Source: the human T2T-CHM13v2.0 reference genome, Homo sapiens. Taken from it: a stretch of DNA of 64,000 nucleotides. Below, in pieces: positions 2,661-32,898 of this stretch. Within the stretch, counting starts at the first letter, position 1, and every line of letters begins with the position of its first letter. Position numbers and translations under genes: made by a program. Where the stretch lies: the NCBI RefSeq assembly GCF_009914755.1, contig NC_060941.1. The stretch is one strand, 5' to 3'. Under the pieces are notes generated by a model. The model saw nothing but the letters and a program-made list of their open reading frames with translations. It did no database searches and was not told where the DNA came from.

Positions 2661-3199
2661 CATGGAGCTTACATTCTAACAATGGAGACAGATATTAAAC
2701 AAAATCGACAAGTAAGTTATGCAGTATGTTAGAAGAGGATATGTTGATAGAGAAAATGCACAGGGCAAAAAGATGGGTGTGGTGGGGTAAGGATTGGAAT
2801 TTTAGAAAGGGTAGCCACTCCACGGAGAAGCTGACATCTCAGCCATTTGAGCCAAGACTTTAAAGAGGTGAGAGAGCCTTCTGTGCACAGGGAACAGAAA
2901 GTGCAAGGACTGTGAGCTGGGAGTGTTCCTCACACATCGGAGGAATGTGGAGGACGCCCATGAGGCTGGAGAGAACAAGCGGGAGGGTAGGAGATGCGAT
3001 CAGACAAGCCATCGTGGAAGGTCTTGTGGCCTTTGTTAGGACTTTGGCTCTTACTCTGAATGAAGTGGGGAGCCATTAGGGCACTTTTGGGACAATTGGG
3101 GAAATTCCAACAGGAACCGTATATTAAATATTATTTAATCAGTATCGAAGTTTGTGGATGTTGTAATTCTCAATAAGTTGAAATAATTTTCCTGGGTGT

Positions 3200-4000
3200 T
3201 GGTGTGAACTGAAAGTTTGTGTCTTCCCACCTCCCAAATTTATGTGTTGAAGGCCTAACCCTCCAATATGATGGTATTTGGAGGTGGGCCCCTTGGGAAG
3301 TAATTTGGGTTAGATTAGGTCATGACAGTGGGGCACTCAGGACAGGATTAGTGCCCTTAGCAAAAGGTGAAGAGACATTAAATCTTCCTCTCCCCAAGCA
3401 TACTACAAGATGACAGCCACCTACAAGCCAGGAAGAGGCCTCAGAATTAAACCCACTTTACCAGCACCTTAATCTTGGACATCCCAACCTCCCAGCTGAC
3501 TATGACAGGTGTCACTGTTAGAAGAAACATGCTGACGTACTTAGAGGTAAAGGATCATGATGTCTAGAACTTATTTTCAAGTGACTGGGAAAAAAATAAA
3601 GGAAAAAAATTTAACCATTTGTCATTGTTACAGATAAGACTGTGTGCTCCCCAAAACTTGTATGTTGAAGCCCTAACTTCATGTGACTGTATTTGGAGAC
3701 AGAACCTTTAAGGAGGTTGGGGTTAACTGAGGTCATAAAGATGGGGCCCTAATCCAGTGACTGGTGCCCTTATAAGAAGAGGGAGACACACCAGGTGTGT
3801 GTGCAGAGAAAGGGCCATGTGAGGATACAGTGAGAAGGCAGCCATCTGCAAAGCCAAGGAGACAGGCTTCAGGAGAAACCAAACCTGCCCACACCTTGAC
3901 TCTGGATTTCCAGCCTCCAGAACTGTCAGAAAATAAGCTTCTGGTTTTAAAGCCACCCAGTCTGTGTGCTATTTTGTAATGGCAGCCCTAGAAGACTAAT
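3200..4000 (+). mobile_element. Two MaLR LTR remnants (MLT1/MST-like)
   Basis: tatgttgaagccctaac...gtatttggag; gccatgtgaggatacagtgagaaggcagccatctgcaaagccaagg. Confidence 0.7.
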
Positions 4001-4030
4001 CTACTGCATAACAAGTTACCTCAAATGTAA

Positions 4031-4355
<325 letters not shown>

Positions 4356-4514
4356 AATCTTACATGGTTTCTGAGGGTCAGAAATCTGGAAGACGCTCAG
4401 CTGCGTGGTTCTGGCTCCAGGTCCATCATAAAGTAGTCAGTAAGTTTTCCCCAGGGCTTCCATCATCTGATGGCTTATCTGAGGTAGAAGGCTGCATTTC
4501 CAACATCCACTCAC

Positions 4515-4840
4515 GGCCGGGCACGGTGGCTCACGCCTGTAATCCCAGCACTTTGGGAAGCCGAGGCCAGCGGATCACCTGAGGTCAAGAGTTCAAGACC
4601 AGCCCGGCCCACATGGTTAAAACCCCATCTATACTAAACATACAAAATATTAGCCCGGCATGGTAGTGGGCACCTGTAGCCCCAACTAATCAGGAGGCTG
4701 AGGCAGGAGAATGGCATGAACCCAGGAAGTGGAGCTTGCAGTGAGCCAAGATTGCGCCACTGCACTCCAGCCTGGGCAACAGGGCCAAGACTCCGTCTCG
4801 TTAAAACAAAACAAAACAAAACAACAACAACAAAAAAAAC
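4515..4840 (+). mobile_element. Alu (S/Y)
   Basis: Alu consensus; TSD ccactcac. Confidence 0.9.
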
Positions 4841-5095
4841 CCACTCACCTGGCTGTTGACAAGAGGTCTCAGTTCTTCACCATGTGGTCTTCTCCCCAAG
4901 GCCGCTTAAGTGCCCTTATATGAGGGCATGGCAGTTGGCTTTCCAGATTGAAAGAACCCAGGAACAGAGCAAGGAGGAAGACACAAGGCCTTTTACGACC
5001 TAGTCTTGGAAGTTGCACACCTTCGCTTCTGACACGTTCTAGTATCAGTGAATCACTAAGGCCACCCCACACTCAGGAGGAAGGGAGGTAAGCTG

Positions 5096-6690
5096 TGTCC
5101 CAAATTGGTGAGTTCTTGGTCTGACTTCAAGAATGAAGCCACAGACCCTCGGGGTGAGTGTTACACTTCTTAAAGGCAACGTATCCGGAGTTTGTTCCTT
5201 CTCATGTTCAGATGTGTTCAGAGTTTTTCCCTTCTGGTGGGTTCGTGGTCTCACTGGTTCAGGAGTGAGGCTGCACACCCTCGCGGTGTATTGCAGCTCT
5301 TAAGGAGGCGCGTCTGGAGTTGTTCATTGCTCCTGGTGGGTGAAGCTGCAGACCTTCACGTATTACAGCTCATTAAGGCTGTGTAGACCCAAACAGCGAG
5401 CAGCTGCAAGACTTACCTGCAAACAGCAAAAAAAAAAAAACAACAAAAAAACAAAAAAACAAAAAAACAAAAAACGAGGCTACCACCACAGGCAAAAGGA
5501 CCTCAGCGGTACTGCTGCAGCAAGCGCTGGCAGCCTGCTTTTATTCTCTTATCTGGCCCCACCCACATCCTGCTGATTGGTCCGTTTTACAGAGAGTTGA
5601 TTGGTCTGTCTTACAGAGAGCTGATTGGTCCGTTTTGACAGGGTGCTGATTGGTCCGTTTCGACAGGGTGCTAATTGGTGTATTTACAATCCCTGAGCTA
5701 GACACAAAAGTTCTCCACGGCCCCACTAGATTAGCTAGATACAGACTGCTGATTGGTGTATTTACAAACCCTGAGCTAGACACAGAGTGCTGATCGGTGC
5801 ATTTACAAACCTTGAGCTAGATACAGAGTGCCGATTGGTGTATTCACAATCCCTTAACTAGACATAAAGATTCTCCAAGTCCTCACCAGATGAGCTAGAT
5901 ACAGAGTGCCGATTGGTGCATCCACAAACCCTGAGCTAGACACAGGGTGCTGATTGGTGTGTTTACAAACCTTGAGCTAGATACGGAGTGCTGATTGGTG
6001 TATTTACAATCCCTTAGCTAGACATAAAGGTTCTCCAAGTCCCCCCTAGACTCAGGAGCCCAGCTGGCTTCACCCAGTGGATCCCGCACTGGGGCCACAG
6101 GTGGAGCTGCCTGCCAGTCTGGCGCTGTGTGCCCACACTCCTCAGTCCTTGGGCAGTGGATGGGACCGGGTGCCATGGAGCAGGGGGCGGCTCTTGTCGG
6201 GGAGGTTCAGGCCGCACAGGCGCCCACGGTGGCGGCGGGGAGGCTCAGGCATGGTGGGCTGCAGGTGCCGAGCCCTGCCCCGCTGGGAGGCAGCTAAGGC
6301 CCGTGAGAAATCGAGCACAGCGCGGTGGGCCGGCACTGCTGGGGGACCCGGCGCACCCTCCGCAGCTGCTTGCCCGGGTGCTAAGCTCCTCACTGCCCGG
6401 GCCCGGTGGGGCCGGCCGGCCCCTCGGGGTGCGGGGCCCGCCAAGCCCACGCCCACCCAGAACTCTAGTTGGCAGGTGCGCAGCCCCAGTTCCCGCCCAC
6501 GCCTCTCCCTCCACACCTCCCCGCAAGCTGAGGGAGCCGTCTCCGGCCTTGGCCAGCCCAGAAAGGGGCTCCCACAGTGCAGCGGTGGGCTGAAGGGCTC
6601 CTCAAGCACGGCCACAGTGGGCTCCAAGGCCGAGGAGGCGCCCAGAGTGAGCCAGGGCTGCGAGGGCTGCCAGCGTGCTGTCACCTCTCA
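5096..6690 (-). mobile_element. Solo LTR12C-type (ERV9) LTR
   Basis: Minus strand begins TGAGAGGTGACAGC and ends ...GGACA; 4-bp TSD GCTG (5092-5095 / 6691-6694); CpG-rich U3; tandem CTGATTGG repeats. Confidence 0.93.
5539..6000 (-). promoter_or_regulatory. LTR12 promoter/enhancer: about ten CCAAT (NF-Y) boxes, CACCC box, GATA site, AATAAAA TATA-like box
   Basis: Repeated ATTGG between 5576 and 5998; CCCCACCC 5557-5564; AGATAAG 5554-5548; AATAAAA 5545-5539. Confidence 0.8.
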
Positions 6691-7237
6691 GCTGCATCTC
6701 TTGAAGAGCAAAAAAACTCTTGGTACGTGCTATACAGGATTTGTTATTGTAATTATTATTATTATCAATGTATTTAAATCCACAGATACCTCCCCTGGAG
6801 GATCTTCTTCTAACCCGCCTACAACCCTCTCTCTGATTAGGGGCCTGAGCAAAGCCTGAGAAGGGACGCGCAGGACAAATTTGCGGGGAAAGAGAGAAGA
6901 TTGGGCAAAAATTTGGCATGAGAACAGCCTTTAACCTGTCCCTTCAATACATTTGCTGCCTCAGAAAGGAAGAGGCCACAAGGAGCTCCTGGTTTCTACT
7001 ACAGCCTCCAGAGTCTCTAATTCCGTCCCCAAGGATGGTGTGGGCAGCATGGTTGGGGGGCATCCACGGTCTTCAGCGGTCCCACTCTGGAGCCTCCCAC
7101 ACCACACTGTGGGCACTGTGGACATTCAGTAAGTATGTGATGCTGATGATCTTGAAGGTTCTCAGAGGCTGGCTGATTCTTCCTGTCTGTGTATTCACAC
7201 TTGGTACTTGTTGATTAGTTAAGGATCAAGGATCCCA

Positions 7238-7539
7238 ATTTTTTTTTTTTTTTTTTGGAGATAGGGTCTCACTCTGTTGCCCAGGCTGGAGTGCAGTGAC
7301 GTGATCTTGGCTCACTGTAACCTCCGCTTCCTGGGTTCCAGTGATTCTCCTGCCTCAGCCTCCCTAATAGCTGAGATTACAGGCGTGAGGCACCACATCT
7401 GGCTAATTTTTGTGTTTTTAGTAGAGATGGGGTTTCACCATTTTGGCCAGGCTGGTCTTGAACTCCTGACCTCAGGTGATCCACCTACCTCGGCCTCCCA
7501 AAATGCTGGGATTACAGCTGTGAGCCACTGTGTCCGGCC
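7238..7539 (-). mobile_element. AluS
   Basis: TSD aaggatcccaatttt. Confidence 0.9.
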
Positions 7540-7659
7540 AAGGATCCCAATTTTGAGGAGAGACTGGTATCATGAGTTCAACCAACCAGCAGGCTTCCGG
7601 TGAGCACAGTGAGCCAGAATGATGGCTTGTGGCTTCATTCAACCAGTAGAATCACAGCA

Positions 7660-7870
7660 ATAAAAATACCTAATACATCTCCTATTCCAGGTTCTGTTCT
7701 AAATGATATACACACATATTAATTGAGTTAGTTCTCAAAGCAACCCTATGAACTATGAATCTGTCCATTTTACAGATGAGGAAATAGAGGCACAGAGAGA
7801 TTAAGAGACTCGCCCAAGGTCAGAGTTCAGAGTTTGATTCCAAGAGTATGTGTTTAAAACTGCTATGCTA
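7660..7870. mobile_element. MIR; other MIR fragments at about 1620-1760, 15090-15140, 20540-20620 and 28890-29040
   Basis: ccattttacagatgaggaaatagaggcacagagagattaag. Confidence 0.8.
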
Positions 7871-8523
7871 GATTGCCTCTTAAAAATTGTGCAATTCATC
7901 CTTAACATTTAAAGGTATCTAAATATGAGCAGGAGGTGGTACTTAAATAATAGAAATAATTGAGAGTAAGATTTAGGGACTAGAAAGTTCAGGTAACATA
8001 GAATGCTAAGCAGGAAGGAACCTGAGACATACCAGGGCCATAAATTTTCAAACTGGATTCTGAAGAGTCCTAGGATTCTTGTGGTATCTCTGGATCTGCT
8101 TGTCCAGGAGTGAGGGAAATCTTTGGACTCCACCACCCCAATTCAACCACAGCACCCACCAGGATCTGTTTCACAGGGTGTTCCTGTGCAGAAGTCACAA
8201 GCCCAAGTTTGGCTGGACCACAGCCTCAGATTGTCAGGGAAGTTTGCAAATGGCTTTGAAGTGGCTGAAAATATTACTGGGTTTCCTTTCCATGATATTG
8301 TCTCTAGAAAACCTTTCCGGGGTTGATTCTATAGGGATTTGTGTCTTTCTTTTTGTTTTTCTTTTTACCATTTTGCAACTCTGAACTCTGTTGACACAAG
8401 AGTTAACTTACGTAGCAAGTGATTTCTGCCCTGTAGAAGACAACATTTTTGTATCTATTAGCAAATTAGTTTCTACATTCCTGATTGTGCATATGTGTGT
8501 CTGTTCTGTGGATTCTTCTTTGA

Positions 8524-17783: not shown

Positions 17784-18207
17784 AGTTTGAAGTGGTGGAT
17801 GAGAGAAGAGTCCTCTGTACTGACCCTACTGGTTTGTTGCCCACCTGAACACTGACTGTGTGTGAGCCCAAAGGTGAGGGGACACCAGACCTAAGATGTG
17901 GTTTCTAGTTCCCAGGCAGCCTAGGTGACCAGCTTTGAGAGTGAGTGCTTGTTGGGGGGGTCCCCCGTCACTGCACTCTTCCCCATGAATAAACTACCAA
18001 AGGGCTAGAGAGAACTTGAGAACAAACTTCATATAACATTCACTGTTTTCAGGGATAGAGTGAGGCCCACGGGGGAAAATAAGCAGGTGTCCCTCAGCAG
18101 GAAGGCACAGCAGGCATCGGTCCCGAGCTGGACTGACTGGACCGCAGGCTCACGACTTCTTCTTTCACGATCTCTGTCTCAGGACATTCTGGAACAAGGC
18201 TGCCTCC

Positions 18208-32671
<14,464 letters not shown>

Positions 32672-32885
32672 GGTGGCAGTGACCTCACGGCCCAGGCAGC
32701 TGACTCTTCACAGTGAAATTGTGGGTAGCAGAGCCACAGGTGGCTCAGGGGTGGTGGCTGCACTCTTGTTTCTCCCTTCGGCCTACAGGGTCCCACAGAT
32801 GATGGAGTTTGAGACTCCACAGAAGGTGGCTGGAGACAGGTTGGGCGGCTCAGGACGATGTGCTGGGGCAGTTATGGGAGATGTG

Positions 32886-32898
32886 GTTACCTAGCAAC
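32886..32898. promoter_or_regulatory. RFX X-box in CCDC42 proximal promoter
   Basis: GTTACCTAGCAAC about 215 bp upstream of the ATG; second X-box-like GTTGCCATGGAGCC at 33059-33072; fits RFX2/3 control of ciliary/flagellar genes. Confidence 0.7.

What the first reader, a model, noticed from the sequence alone, without database searches (positions are those of the whole stretch)
5411..5545. LTR12C poly(A) signal replaced by a perfect splice donor: candidate exapted first exon
Seen (minus strand): intact promoter (about 10 CCAAT boxes, CACCC, GATA, AATAAAA at 5545-5539), then an ATG-free stretch of about 100 nt ending GCTGTTTGCAG|GTAAGTCTTGC (exon end 5417). Established/recalled: the LTR12 consensus here reads TTTGCAATAAATCTTGC, which is the LTR's own poly(A) hexamer. 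LTR12 LTRs are known NF-Y-driven, testis-active and HDAC-inhibitor-inducible promoters of chimeric mRNAs (e.g. GTAp63). About three changes (a G insertion and two A>G) both destroy termination and create the consensus CAG|GTAAGT. Inference: a hominoid LTR-derived 5'-UTR exon that splices to something at lower coordinates, either the acceptor at 605 or, outside the window, the next minus-strand gene (MYH10 by recalled 17p13.1 gene order).
Basis: partly seen in the sequence, partly recalled or inferred. Interest (0 to 1): 0.8.

Follow-up and report, generated by a model that had tools for sequence, protein, structure and literature searches.

The report
Old retroviral LTR with splice-donor motif
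This is an ordinary solitary LTR of the HERV9 family whose own poly(A) site has decayed into a perfect splice-donor motif, which makes it a possible but so far unsupported start exon for a host transcript.

Summary
The letters are as described. On the minus strand there are 10 CCAAT boxes, AATAAAA at 5545-5539, then 122 nt without ATG ending in CAG|GTAAGT, with the last exon base at 5417. The element is a solitary HERV9 LTR of LTR12C type, 6690-5096, with a 4-bp target duplication. It aligns end to end with six copies that a review names LTR12C.

The donor is private to this copy. Its 18-mer occurs once in the genome, against 1295 places for the poly(A)-hexamer form and 8 for a weaker GTAAGT form. 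None of 46 other copies has a strong donor anywhere after the start site.

Nothing supports exaptation:
- RefSeq has no minus-strand transcript, CAGE cluster or regulatory feature here.
- The published start-site motifs are absent.
- The promoter-to-U5 part is the most diverged of 47 copies.
- Known LTR12C promoters such as GBP2 and GBP5 keep their hexamer.

My reading is neutral decay that left a latent first exon at about 5516-5417. Expression and ape orthologues could not be checked with these tools.

The parts
6691..6694 (-). 5' copy of the 4-bp target-site duplication (CAGC)
   Evidence: 29 of 32 other copies have a perfect 4-bp duplication flanking TG...ACACA, against 1 of 32 in the control. 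The window has CAGC on both sides if its LTR end is two bases short.
5096..6690 (-). Solitary HERV9 LTR, LTR12C type, 1595 bp. The 3' end could be read as 5094, which would then overlap the duplication.
   Evidence: 4125 first-look candidates in the genome; aligns over query 1-1595 with copies at the HBB-LCR, IRGM, GBP2, GBP5, TP63 and TNFRSF10B loci, which the review PMC11853044 (Table 1) names LTR12C. The ends are TG...CA.
6051..6690 (-). G+C-rich 5' extension of U3
   Evidence: It is absent from the ADH1C LTR12 copy, which matches only query 617-1476. Print assigns a ~600-bp 5' extension to LTR12C/D/E (PMC8767690; PMC11853044). Its divergence is typical of the family: rank 23 and 20 of 47 for the two halves.
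5571..6024 (-). U3 tandem repeats with 10 CCAAT boxes and GATA-site motifs
   Evidence: TRF finds a 41-bp unit x7.2 at 5733-6024 and a 25-bp unit x4.5 at 5571-5679. CCAAT positions are and 3 exact GATA-site motifs. This region is well kept: branch ratio 0.7, rank 10 of 47.
5539..5545 (-). TATA-like AATAAAA box
   Evidence: Present in 39 of 46 other copies. Print places it about 30 nt upstream of the start site (PMC11853044; PMC7641743).
5417..5516 (-). Predicted, unproven first exon (R region), 100 nt, no ATG. The start is inferred by alignment.
   Evidence: The RefSeq 5' ends of IRGM and TP63 align to ~5516, GBP5 to ~5507 and TLCD4 to ~5484. The printed start-site motifs are absent here. This is the most diverged stretch: p 0.41 against 0.16, rank 47 of 47.
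5427..5474 (-). T-rich microsatellite-like run, private expansion
   Evidence: TRF gives period 8 x5.9. The spacing from the box to the site is 122 nt, against a median of 80 and a range of 58-90 in 46 copies. There are 42 private insert columns in the 3' part.
5411..5419 (-). CAG|GTAAGT, a 9/9 match to the 5' splice-site consensus, on the columns of the family's poly(A) hexamer
   Evidence: The 18-mer around it is unique in the genome. 0 of 46 other copies have an 8/9 or better match anywhere from the start to the LTR end. The consensus is in print in PMC3245539.
5096..5410 (-). U5 region, which would be intronic if the donor were used
   Evidence: Alignment. Divergence is 1.5-2.9 times the median, rank 45-47 of 47. 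The + strand lncRNA LOC105371526 has its last exon, 4901-5247, overlapping it antisense.
5092..5095 (-). 3' copy of the 4-bp target-site duplication (CAGC)

Best explanation
This is a solitary LTR of the endogenous retrovirus HERV9 (ERV9), of the LTR12C type. It inserted in the minus orientation between CCDC42 and MYH10 and was reduced to one LTR by recombination.

Its U3 enhancer and promoter part is kept about as well as in other copies: the 5' extension, the 41-bp repeats with 10 NF-Y-type CCAAT boxes, and the TATA-like box. The stretch from the core promoter through R into U5 has decayed more than in any of 46 compared copies. A T-rich microsatellite-like run has expanded there, the printed start-site motifs are gone, and the family's poly(A) hexamer is gone.

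On the columns of that hexamer the decay happens to have produced a full consensus 5' splice site (shown). I infer that this is a by-product of neutral change, not an adaptation.

The result is a latent first exon of about 100 nt (5516-5417). If the LTR is derepressed, Pol II starting behind the TATA-like box would meet a strong U1 site and no poly(A) hexamer until 3139. Transcripts would then be expected to elongate and splice opportunistically to a nearby acceptor, such as the acceptor-like sites at 3584 or 2965, giving an unannotated non-coding RNA. Such derepression is reported for the family in testis, oocyte and cells treated with HDAC or DNMT inhibitors. In ordinary tissues the LTR is most likely silent, as most LTR12C copies are.
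For: Family and solo state:
- End-to-end alignment with six copies named LTR12C in print.
- A 4-bp duplication as in 29 of 32 other copies.
- 41-bp repeats.

The donor is private:
- Genome counts of 1, 8 and 1295 for the three forms.
- 32 of 46 aligned copies have the hexamer, 13 neither and 1 GTAAGT.
- 0 of 46 have any 8/9 or better donor in R-U5.

Decay rather than design:
- The 3' part 5586-5096 has a branch of 0.153 against a median of 0.055, rank 47 of 47, while U3 has 0.068 against 0.075, rank 11. The peak is on the start-to-site stretch.
- GTGGC and the inverted repeat are absent here but present in 32 and 30 of 46 others.
- A weaker GTAAGT form arose at the same site in 8 other places, and locus L002 also carries GTAAGT there. 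The site therefore drifts readily towards a donor look.
- With 2453 LTR12C copies (PMC8767690) and a 421-nt R-U5, my arithmetic gives about 16 chance 9/9 matches family-wide under equal base use.

No sign of use:
- No RefSeq minus-strand transcript or functional element.
- No paper joins LTR12C with CCDC42, and the one paper that holds both LTR12C and MYH10 is unrelated by title.
[quoted passage not shown] It also gives an example of a structurally capable LTR12C with no transcript (ELMO1 intron 16, PMC12147996).

Latent-exon logic:
- Mapping of annotated 5' ends.
- First minus-strand hexamer at 3139 and acceptor-like sites at 3584 and 2965.
Against: - The U3 part is comparatively well kept and CpG-rich: 63 CpG, at least as many as 38 of 46 copies. 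That would fit a copy that escapes germline methylation, or one that is used.
- The excess change peaks on the predicted start site. In U5 it is strand-asymmetric in the direction I recall for a sense-strand non-template strand (rank 2 of 47). That could be a footprint of germline transcription rather than of neglect.
- IRGM and TNFRSF10B copies also lack the start-site motifs, yet they are named promoters, so their absence here proves little.
- RefSeq is a thin record of testis, oocyte and drug-induced transcripts. The supplements that list LTR12C-driven transcripts (PMC8767690, PMC5085097 and others) were closed, and Brocks 2017 was not held.
- My 46 copies are the best matches plus named loci, not a random sample.
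Confidence: 0.6

Rival explanations
1. The LTR is an exapted, regularly used promoter whose R region became a 5'-UTR first exon. Loss of the poly(A) hexamer and gain of a U1 site let transcripts run on and splice to a downstream acceptor, giving a hominoid-specific lncRNA or, at 86.6 kb, a chimeric MYH10 mRNA.
For: - A perfect 9/9 donor, unique among 47 copies and in the genome.
- The exon would be ATG-free.
- 10 CCAAT boxes and the TATA-like box are kept, and U3 is well preserved.
- No hexamer for 2.3 kb downstream.
- LTR12C is the leading LTR source of chimeric transcripts in oocyte and testis (PMC8767690).
- GBP2's LTR12C-derived extra exon also lacks start codons (PMC7641743).
- MYH10 is the next gene on that strand.
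Against: - No annotated transcript, CAGE cluster or MYH10 upstream exon.
- The start-site motifs are lost.
- The supposed exon is the fastest-changing part of the LTR, the opposite of constraint.
- Hexamer loss is not required in known cases.
- None of the 8 GTAAGT-type places, nor L002, has an annotated 5' end nearby: 0 of 10 places including this one.
- No paper links LTR12C with CCDC42, and none usefully with MYH10.
Confidence: 0.2
2. The LTR matters, if at all, only as a distal NF-Y-bound enhancer or ZNF676/KAP1 target for neighbouring genes. The nearest candidate is CCDC42, 11.3 kb upstream of the LTR's 5' end on the same strand. The R-region donor is irrelevant.
For: - U3 with its 10 CCAAT boxes and GATA-site motifs is the best-kept part, and the 5' extension is present.
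- Print reports that LTR12C copies act as enhancers and that genes within 50 kb of germline-active LTR12C are enriched for cilium and flagellum terms (PMC8767690).
- CCDC42 is a sperm-flagellum gene by my recollection; no call here shows it.
Against: - No RefSeq enhancer or regulatory feature lies on the LTR, whereas another chr17 copy (L019) has one.
- CCDC42 is not in the main text of any LTR12C paper.
- U3 preservation is unexceptional, rank 10 to 23 of 47.
Confidence: 0.15
3. The (Y)n-CAG|GTAAGT motif works as an acceptor or as a recursive splice site for minus-strand transcripts that read through from upstream, for example beyond the CCDC42 3' end.
For: An acceptor-like tract (82% pyrimidine, 78% T over 50 nt) abuts a perfect donor. 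An LTR12C-borne acceptor is known in CHM (PMC11853044 section 10).
Against: No minus-strand gene or transcript spans the site. CCDC42 ends at 18013 and only + strand lncRNAs cover the LTR. The recursive-site definition is recalled and only partly seen in print.
Confidence: 0.03

Closest known systems
LTR12C alternative or primary promoters with LTR-derived non-coding first exons (GBP2, GBP5, TP63/GTAp63, IRGM, TNFRSF10B; Table 1 of PMC11853044)
   Same: Same family and architecture, and end-to-end alignment. The TATA-like box and CCAAT repeats are shared. The annotated 5' ends of IRGM, TP63 and GBP5 map to 5507-5516 here. The leader is ATG-free, as reported for GBP2.
   Different: Those loci have transcripts and this one has none in RefSeq. 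GBP2 and GBP5 keep the hexamer-bearing 17-mer. None of the 46 compared copies, the named ones included, has an 8/9 or better donor inside R-U5.
LTR12C-borne splice acceptor in CHM (isoform b), cited in PMC11853044 section 10
   Same: A splice site that the review says was most likely acquired after fixation inside an LTR12C. The review calls LTR12-derived splice sites relatively uncommon.
   Different: It is an acceptor inside a gene with a documented isoform. Here the site is a donor in an intergenic solo LTR with no documented use.
ELMO1 intron-16 LTR12C (PMC12147996)
   Same: The authors describe it as structurally capable of driving transcription but found no transcript in the databanks. 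This locus is in the same position.
   Different: That copy is dated at 6-10 My and lies antisense in an intron. No splice-site gain is reported for it.
U1 snRNP suppression of the 5' LTR poly(A) site by a nearby major splice donor (HIV-1, foamy viruses)
   Same: The logic is the same: a donor close to the LTR's poly(A) site favours read-through. I saw the abstract start of PMC3694450 and the abstract start plus a reference title in PMC3826338.
   Different: In those viruses the poly(A) signal stays and is masked from a donor further downstream. Here the hexamer itself is absent and the donor motif occupies its place, in a solo LTR with no provirus behind it.
Recursive splice sites (juxtaposed 3' and 5' splice-site motifs in long introns)
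   Same: A polypyrimidine tract plus CAG directly followed by GTAAGT.
   Different: No same-strand intron contains it. The definition is largely recalled.

Membership tests
HERV9 (ERV9) LTR, LTR12C subfamily | Aligns over its whole length with copies named LTR12C | tested here: met
   Query 1-1595 aligns with the HBB-LCR (1693 bp found, 1695 in the table), IRGM (1647 vs 1652), GBP2 (1589 vs 1591), GBP5 (1437 vs 1438), TP63 (1217 vs 1218) and TNFRSF10B (1414 vs 1416) copies. I matched the T2T copies to the table's hg38 rows by gene neighbourhood and length, not by liftover.
HERV9 (ERV9) LTR, LTR12C subfamily | About 600-bp 5' extension (shared by LTR12C, D and E; absent from LTR12) | tested here: met
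   6690-6051 aligns with the LTR12C copies. The ADH1C LTR12 copy matches only query 617-1476. The print basis is PMC8767690 and PMC11853044.
HERV9 (ERV9) LTR, LTR12C subfamily | U3 with 5-17 tandem ~41-bp units carrying CCAAT and GATA-site motifs | tested here: met
   A 41-bp unit x7.2 and a 25-bp unit x4.5. 10 CCAAT and 3 exact GATA-site motifs, but no exact GTGGGGA.
HERV9 (ERV9) LTR, LTR12C subfamily | AATAAAA about 30 nt upstream of a start site within GCCAGCAGTGGC or GTGGC | tested here: inconclusive
   AATAAAA is present at 5545-5539. GTGGC and the inverted repeat are absent here and present in 32 and 30 of 46 other copies. They are also absent in the IRGM and TNFRSF10B copies.
HERV9 (ERV9) LTR, LTR12C subfamily | TG...CA ends with a 4-bp target duplication; length near the 1577-bp reference given in print | tested here: met
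   The LTR starts with TG. CAGC lies on both sides if the 3' end is two bases short. 29 of 32 other copies have a perfect 4-bp duplication. Length is 1595 bp against 1577 (PMC5134097).
HERV9 (ERV9) LTR, LTR12C subfamily | Distinction from LTR12D and LTR12E; Dfam/RepeatMasker call | tested here: inconclusive
   The LTR12D copy in DHRS2 aligns only in pieces (query 27-200 and 617-1588, 69% over the longest piece), so LTR12D is unlikely. I had no named LTR12E copy and no Dfam model.
Exapted LTR-derived first exon or alternative promoter | Transcript 5' ends in the LTR (annotation, CAGE) | tested here: not met
   No RefSeq minus-strand transcript, CAGE cluster or promoter feature on 5096-6690.
Exapted LTR-derived first exon or alternative promoter | Spliced junction from the LTR donor to a host exon | not testable with these tools
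   No read data. The relevant supplements were not opened because the brief says supplements are closed, and Brocks 2017 was not held.
Exapted LTR-derived first exon or alternative promoter | Donor of consensus strength downstream of the start site | tested here: met
   9/9 match at 5419-5411.
Exapted LTR-derived first exon or alternative promoter | Conservation of the exon and donor in related species | not testable with these tools
   No primate genomes were available. Within the family the stretch is the most diverged of 47 copies.
Recursive splice site | Juxtaposed polypyrimidine-AG and GTAAGT | tested here: met
Recursive splice site | Lies inside a long intron on the same strand | tested here: not met
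   Only + strand lncRNAs span it.

The most novel reading that the evidence does not exclude
The private burst of change centred on the predicted start site, with its sense-strand C>T and A>G excess in U5, is the footprint of long-standing germline transcription from this LTR. On this reading, replacing the LTR's poly(A) hexamer with a full U1 site, right behind a long U-rich leader, turned a self-terminating solo LTR into an elongating promoter. That promoter would feed an unannotated hominoid-specific spliced transcript running towards MYH10.
Probability: 0.08. Interest if true: 0.55.

Novelty: new member of a known kind. Interest (0 to 1): 0.25.

Why it matters
If the donor were used, this would be a rare documented case of a splice site born inside an LTR12 repeat. 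The review I read names only the CHM acceptor and calls such sites relatively uncommon. It would also be a tidy natural example of a switch from a poly(A) site to a U1 site making a solo LTR productive.

As the evidence stands, it is one of roughly 2,450 LTR12C copies (PMC8767690) with a chance-level motif and no sign of use. Its main value is as a specific locus to look up in existing testis, oocyte and HDACi/DNMTi transcript data.

The uneven decay along the LTR is a small curiosity of its own: typical U3 against an extreme promoter-R-U5 part.

Tried and rejected
Ideas rejected:
- Subfamily-wide variant. Genome counts of 1, 8 and 1295 and 0 of 46 copies with the full motif rule it out.
- R/U5 swapped in from another living subfamily. 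No copy in the genome is close to this R region. The best others reach 73-79% across it, and 27 of 29 loci did not align over it at all. The LTR12D and LTR12 comparators are more distant still.
- The T-rich run as the tail of a foreign insertion. Both flanks are LTR-homologous and other copies have a short T-rich seed at the same place.
- APOBEC-type editing of the sense strand. The excess is C>T, not G>A.
- A known RNA family. Rfam gave 0 matches at gathering score on 4000-8000.

Dating that did not work well:
- Star-tree branch lengths are 0.093 for the whole LTR and 0.068 for U3. With the rates I recall, these give ages above the family's printed age. They lump source-lineage differences and CpG decay, so I use them only as ranks.
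- For the age itself I fall back on print. Elements with the 5' extension expanded in hominoids about 20 My ago, and the family stopped about 6 My ago.

Literature that led nowhere:
- LTR12C+MYH10 gave 1 unrelated paper, seen as a listing only.
- LTR12C+CCDC42 gave 0.
- LTR12C+TINATs+splic gave 0.
- PMC11317136 and PMC5085097 hold none of my terms in their main text.
The tables of LTR12C-driven transcripts in PMC8767690, PMC5085097 and PMC7641743 may list or exclude this locus.

What I saw of each paper:
- PMC11853044: outline, sections 3, 5 and 10 in full, and passages.
- PMC4574318, PMC5134097, PMC7641743, PMC8767690, PMC12147996, PMC3245539: passages only.
- PMC3826338: abstract start and one reference-list passage.
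- PMC3694450: abstract start only.
- PMC6005702 and PMC1112121: nothing, not held.

Items that rest on recall:
- The hg38 coordinates of HBB, which I used in my working to place L022 in T2T.
- The role of CCDC42 in the sperm flagellum.
- The transcription-linked mutational asymmetry.
- The neutral substitution rates.
- The definition of a recursive splice site.
Full report
OBSERVATION

- There are ten CCAAT boxes between 5998 and 5580, an eleventh at 5108, and none on the + strand of the same stretch.
- There are eight CACCC and one [AT]GATA[AG], at 5554.
- AATAAAA lies at 5545-5539.
- The next 122 nt (5538-5417) hold no ATG.
- CAG ends at 5417 and is followed by GTAAGT at 5416-5411.
- No other AATAAA or ATTAAA lies on the minus strand of 5100-6710.

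The 9-mer CAGGTAAGT, printed as the consensus 5' splice site in PMC3245539, occurs once in the 64-kb window on both strands. That compares with 0.43 expected, and 30 of 100 shuffles have at least one. The motif alone is therefore not beyond chance; its position is what is specific.

The site therefore reads as a polypyrimidine tract plus CAG directly followed by GTAAGT.

WHAT THE ELEMENT IS

A DNA search of the window's own genome with 5100-6710 found 4125 first-look candidates. Of these 39 were scored, and the best other copy was 82% identical over nearly the full length.

With 6690-5096 as query, many copies align from the first to the last base. Six of them sit at loci that Table 1 of the review PMC11853044 lists as LTR12C: upstream of the beta-globin cluster, and at IRGM, GBP2, GBP5, TP63 and TNFRSF10B. 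The lengths I recovered differ from the table's by 1-5 bases. I matched the copies to the table rows by gene neighbourhood and length, not by liftover.

Comparison with other LTR12 subfamilies:
- The LTR12 copy at ADH1C matches only query 617-1476.
- The LTR12D copy in DHRS2 matches only in pieces.
- The window copy has the ~600-bp 5' extension that print assigns to LTR12C, D and E.
- It has 41-bp U3 repeats (x7.2), a 25-bp array (x4.5) and 3 exact GATA-site motifs.
- It is 1595 bp long, against the 1577 bp given for LTR12C in PMC5134097.
- I had no named LTR12E copy and no Dfam model, so 'C rather than E' is not formally tested.

The copy is a solitary LTR.
- 29 of 32 other copies carry a perfect 4-bp duplication directly outside TG...ACACA, against 1 of 32 in the control.
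- The window has CAGC at 6694-6691 and at 5095-5092, with the LTR end two bases shorter than usual.
- No further copy or internal retroviral sequence lies next to it in the window.

AGE

No primate genomes were reachable, so the age rests on print and on ranks.
- Print: ERV9 entered about 30 My ago. The forms with the 5' extension expanded in hominoids about 20 My ago. Proliferation ended about 6 My ago (PMC11853044 and PMC8767690).
- Ranks: from pairwise distances in a 47-copy alignment I computed star-tree branch lengths without building any consensus. U3 of this copy is 0.068 against a median of 0.075, rank 11 of 47. The whole LTR is 0.093 against 0.070, rank 44 of 47.

By U3 this is an ordinary LTR12C of hominoid age. 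I cannot narrow that further.

THE SITE

In the 47-copy alignment, the columns under window 5426-5403 carry the following in the 46 other copies:

| State at the site | Copies |
|---|---|
| Poly(A) hexamer | 32 |
| Neither | 13 |
| GTAAGT | 1 (L017) |
| Full 9-mer | 0 |

In the first sample of 28 other copies the numbers were 20 with the hexamer, 2 with GTAAGT (L002, L017) and 6 with neither.

Genome-wide exact counts:

| Stretch searched | Places |
|---|---|
| Window's 18-mer | 1 |
| 17-mer of L017, with GTAAGT but no exonic match (6/9 by my consensus scoring) | 8 |
| 17-mer of L022, with the hexamer | 1295 |

From the predicted start to the LTR end, none of the 46 other copies has any 8/9 or better match to MAG|GTRAGT. 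The donor is therefore real, strong, private to this copy and unusual for the family.

The weaker form has also arisen several times at the same place, so the site drifts readily towards a donor look. With 2453 LTR12C copies and 421 nt of R-U5 each, my own arithmetic gives about 16 chance 9/9 matches family-wide under equal base use.

IS IT A FIRST EXON?

Points in favour:
- The RefSeq 5' ends of IRGM and TP63 fall 23 nt behind the TATA-like box of their LTRs and map to window ~5516. GBP5 maps to ~5507 and TLCD4 to ~5484.
- Below the donor, the first minus-strand poly(A) hexamer is at 3139. Crude acceptor-like sites lie at 3584 and 2965.

Points against:
- RefSeq has no minus-strand transcript between CCDC42 (18013-32898) and MYH10, whose 5' end is 86.6 kb below the donor. 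It has no CAGE cluster, promoter or enhancer feature on the LTR. Only + strand lncRNAs cross it.
- None of the 8 GTAAGT-type places, L002 or this copy has a same-strand RefSeq gene 5' end nearby: 0 of 10. By comparison, 3 of the first 100 listed hexamer-type places have one: GBP5, TLCD4 and LINC02818.
- The GBP2 and GBP5 copies keep the hexamer-bearing 17-mer, so losing the hexamer is not a precondition for LTR12C promoter use.
- The start-site motifs in print are absent here: GTGGC, the inverted repeat GCCANNNNTGGC (said to be essential for start-site use) and TGGCAACCC. GTGGC is present in 32 of 46 other copies and the inverted repeat in 30 of 46. The IRGM and TNFRSF10B copies lack them too.
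[quoted passage not shown] It also gives a case of a structurally capable LTR12C without transcripts.

UNEVEN DECAY

Branch length relative to the median of the other copies varies sharply along the LTR:

| Region | Ratio to median | Rank of 47 |
|---|---|---|
| 5' extension, two halves | 1.0 and 0.9 | 23 and 20 |
| U3 repeats | 0.7 | 10 |
| Core promoter 5586-5517 | 2.3 | 46 |
| Start to site 5516-5417 | 2.6 (ratio of median p, 0.41 vs 0.16) | 47 |
| First half of U5 | 2.9 | 45 |
| Second half of U5 | 1.5 | 47 |

- For 5586-5096 as a whole the branch is 0.153 against 0.055, rank 47 of 47.
- The spacing from the TATA-like box to the site is 122 nt, against a median of 80 and a range of 58-90.
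- The 3' part has 42 private insert columns.

The donor thus sits in the most heavily altered stretch of the most altered 3' part among 47 copies. That fits a chance product of decay better than a clean conversion.

The cause of the local excess is open. Instability around the T-rich run is one option. The pairwise spectrum in U5 is asymmetric on the sense strand: C>T 11.6 against G>A 4.5, and A>G 7.4 against T>C 5.6. That asymmetry ranks 2 of 47. I recall this as the direction for a non-template strand. It is weak evidence, because another copy reaches the same value.

VERDICT

The family assignment and the statement that a donor stands where the poly(A) hexamer should be are supported. The claim of exaptation is not.

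The most likely reading (0.6) is a decayed solitary LTR12C carrying a latent first exon that would be used only if the LTR fires. Other readings:
- Regular use as an exapted exon: 0.2, with MYH10 as target only a small part of that.
- An enhancer-only role: 0.15.
- An acceptor or recursive-site role: 0.03.

Expression data and ape orthologues would decide between them, and neither was reachable here.

Noticed in passing
window 5096-5586 versus 5587-6690: The promoter-R-U5 third of this LTR is the most diverged of 47 copies (branch 0.153 against a median of 0.055). Its U3 is slightly better kept than the median (0.068 against 0.075, rank 11). The excess peaks on the predicted start site. The cause is unknown.
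   Followed up: partly
window 5096-5410: The pairwise substitution spectrum in U5 is asymmetric on the LTR sense strand: C>T 11.6 against G>A 4.5, and A>G 7.4 against T>C 5.6. The asymmetry ranks 2 of 47. I recall this as the direction for a transcribed non-template strand. The signal is weak.
   Followed up: partly
L002 (chr17:4.545 Mb) and L003 (chr20:33.30 Mb), about 1500-1650 in each locus: Two other LTR12-type copies have independent T- or TG-rich expansions at the same place in R. L003 has a long poly-T there, and L002 also carries GTAAGT at the aligned site. The short T-rich seed in R seems prone to microsatellite growth.
   Followed up: partly
window 4901-5247 (+): The last exon of the predicted lncRNA LOC105371526 ends inside U5 of the LTR, antisense to it. 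LOC105371525 has the whole LTR in an intron, and its exon 6841-7128 starts 151 nt beyond the LTR's 5' end.
   Followed up: no
window 18013-32898 (CCDC42) relative to 5096-6690: The LTR lies 11.3 kb downstream of the 3' end of CCDC42, on the same strand. PMC8767690 reports that genes within 50 kb of germline-active LTR12C copies are enriched for cilium and flagellum terms. CCDC42 appears in the main text of no paper that mentions LTR12C.
   Followed up: partly
G000 chr5:16,929,604 (-) and chr5:17,002,577 (+); chr22:18,828,316 and chr22:42,618,811: Some of the 8 places with the GTAAGT-type 17-mer lie close together or in regions I recall as rich in duplications. They may not be 8 independent events.
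   Followed up: no
window 4800-4840 and 7230-7300 (minus strand): A (TTG/TTTG)n-like run lies at about 4800-4840. The 3' end of an Alu-like repeat with its A-tail lies at about 7240-7300, within the stretch 7230-7542 that the annotation lists as masked repeat.
   Followed up: no
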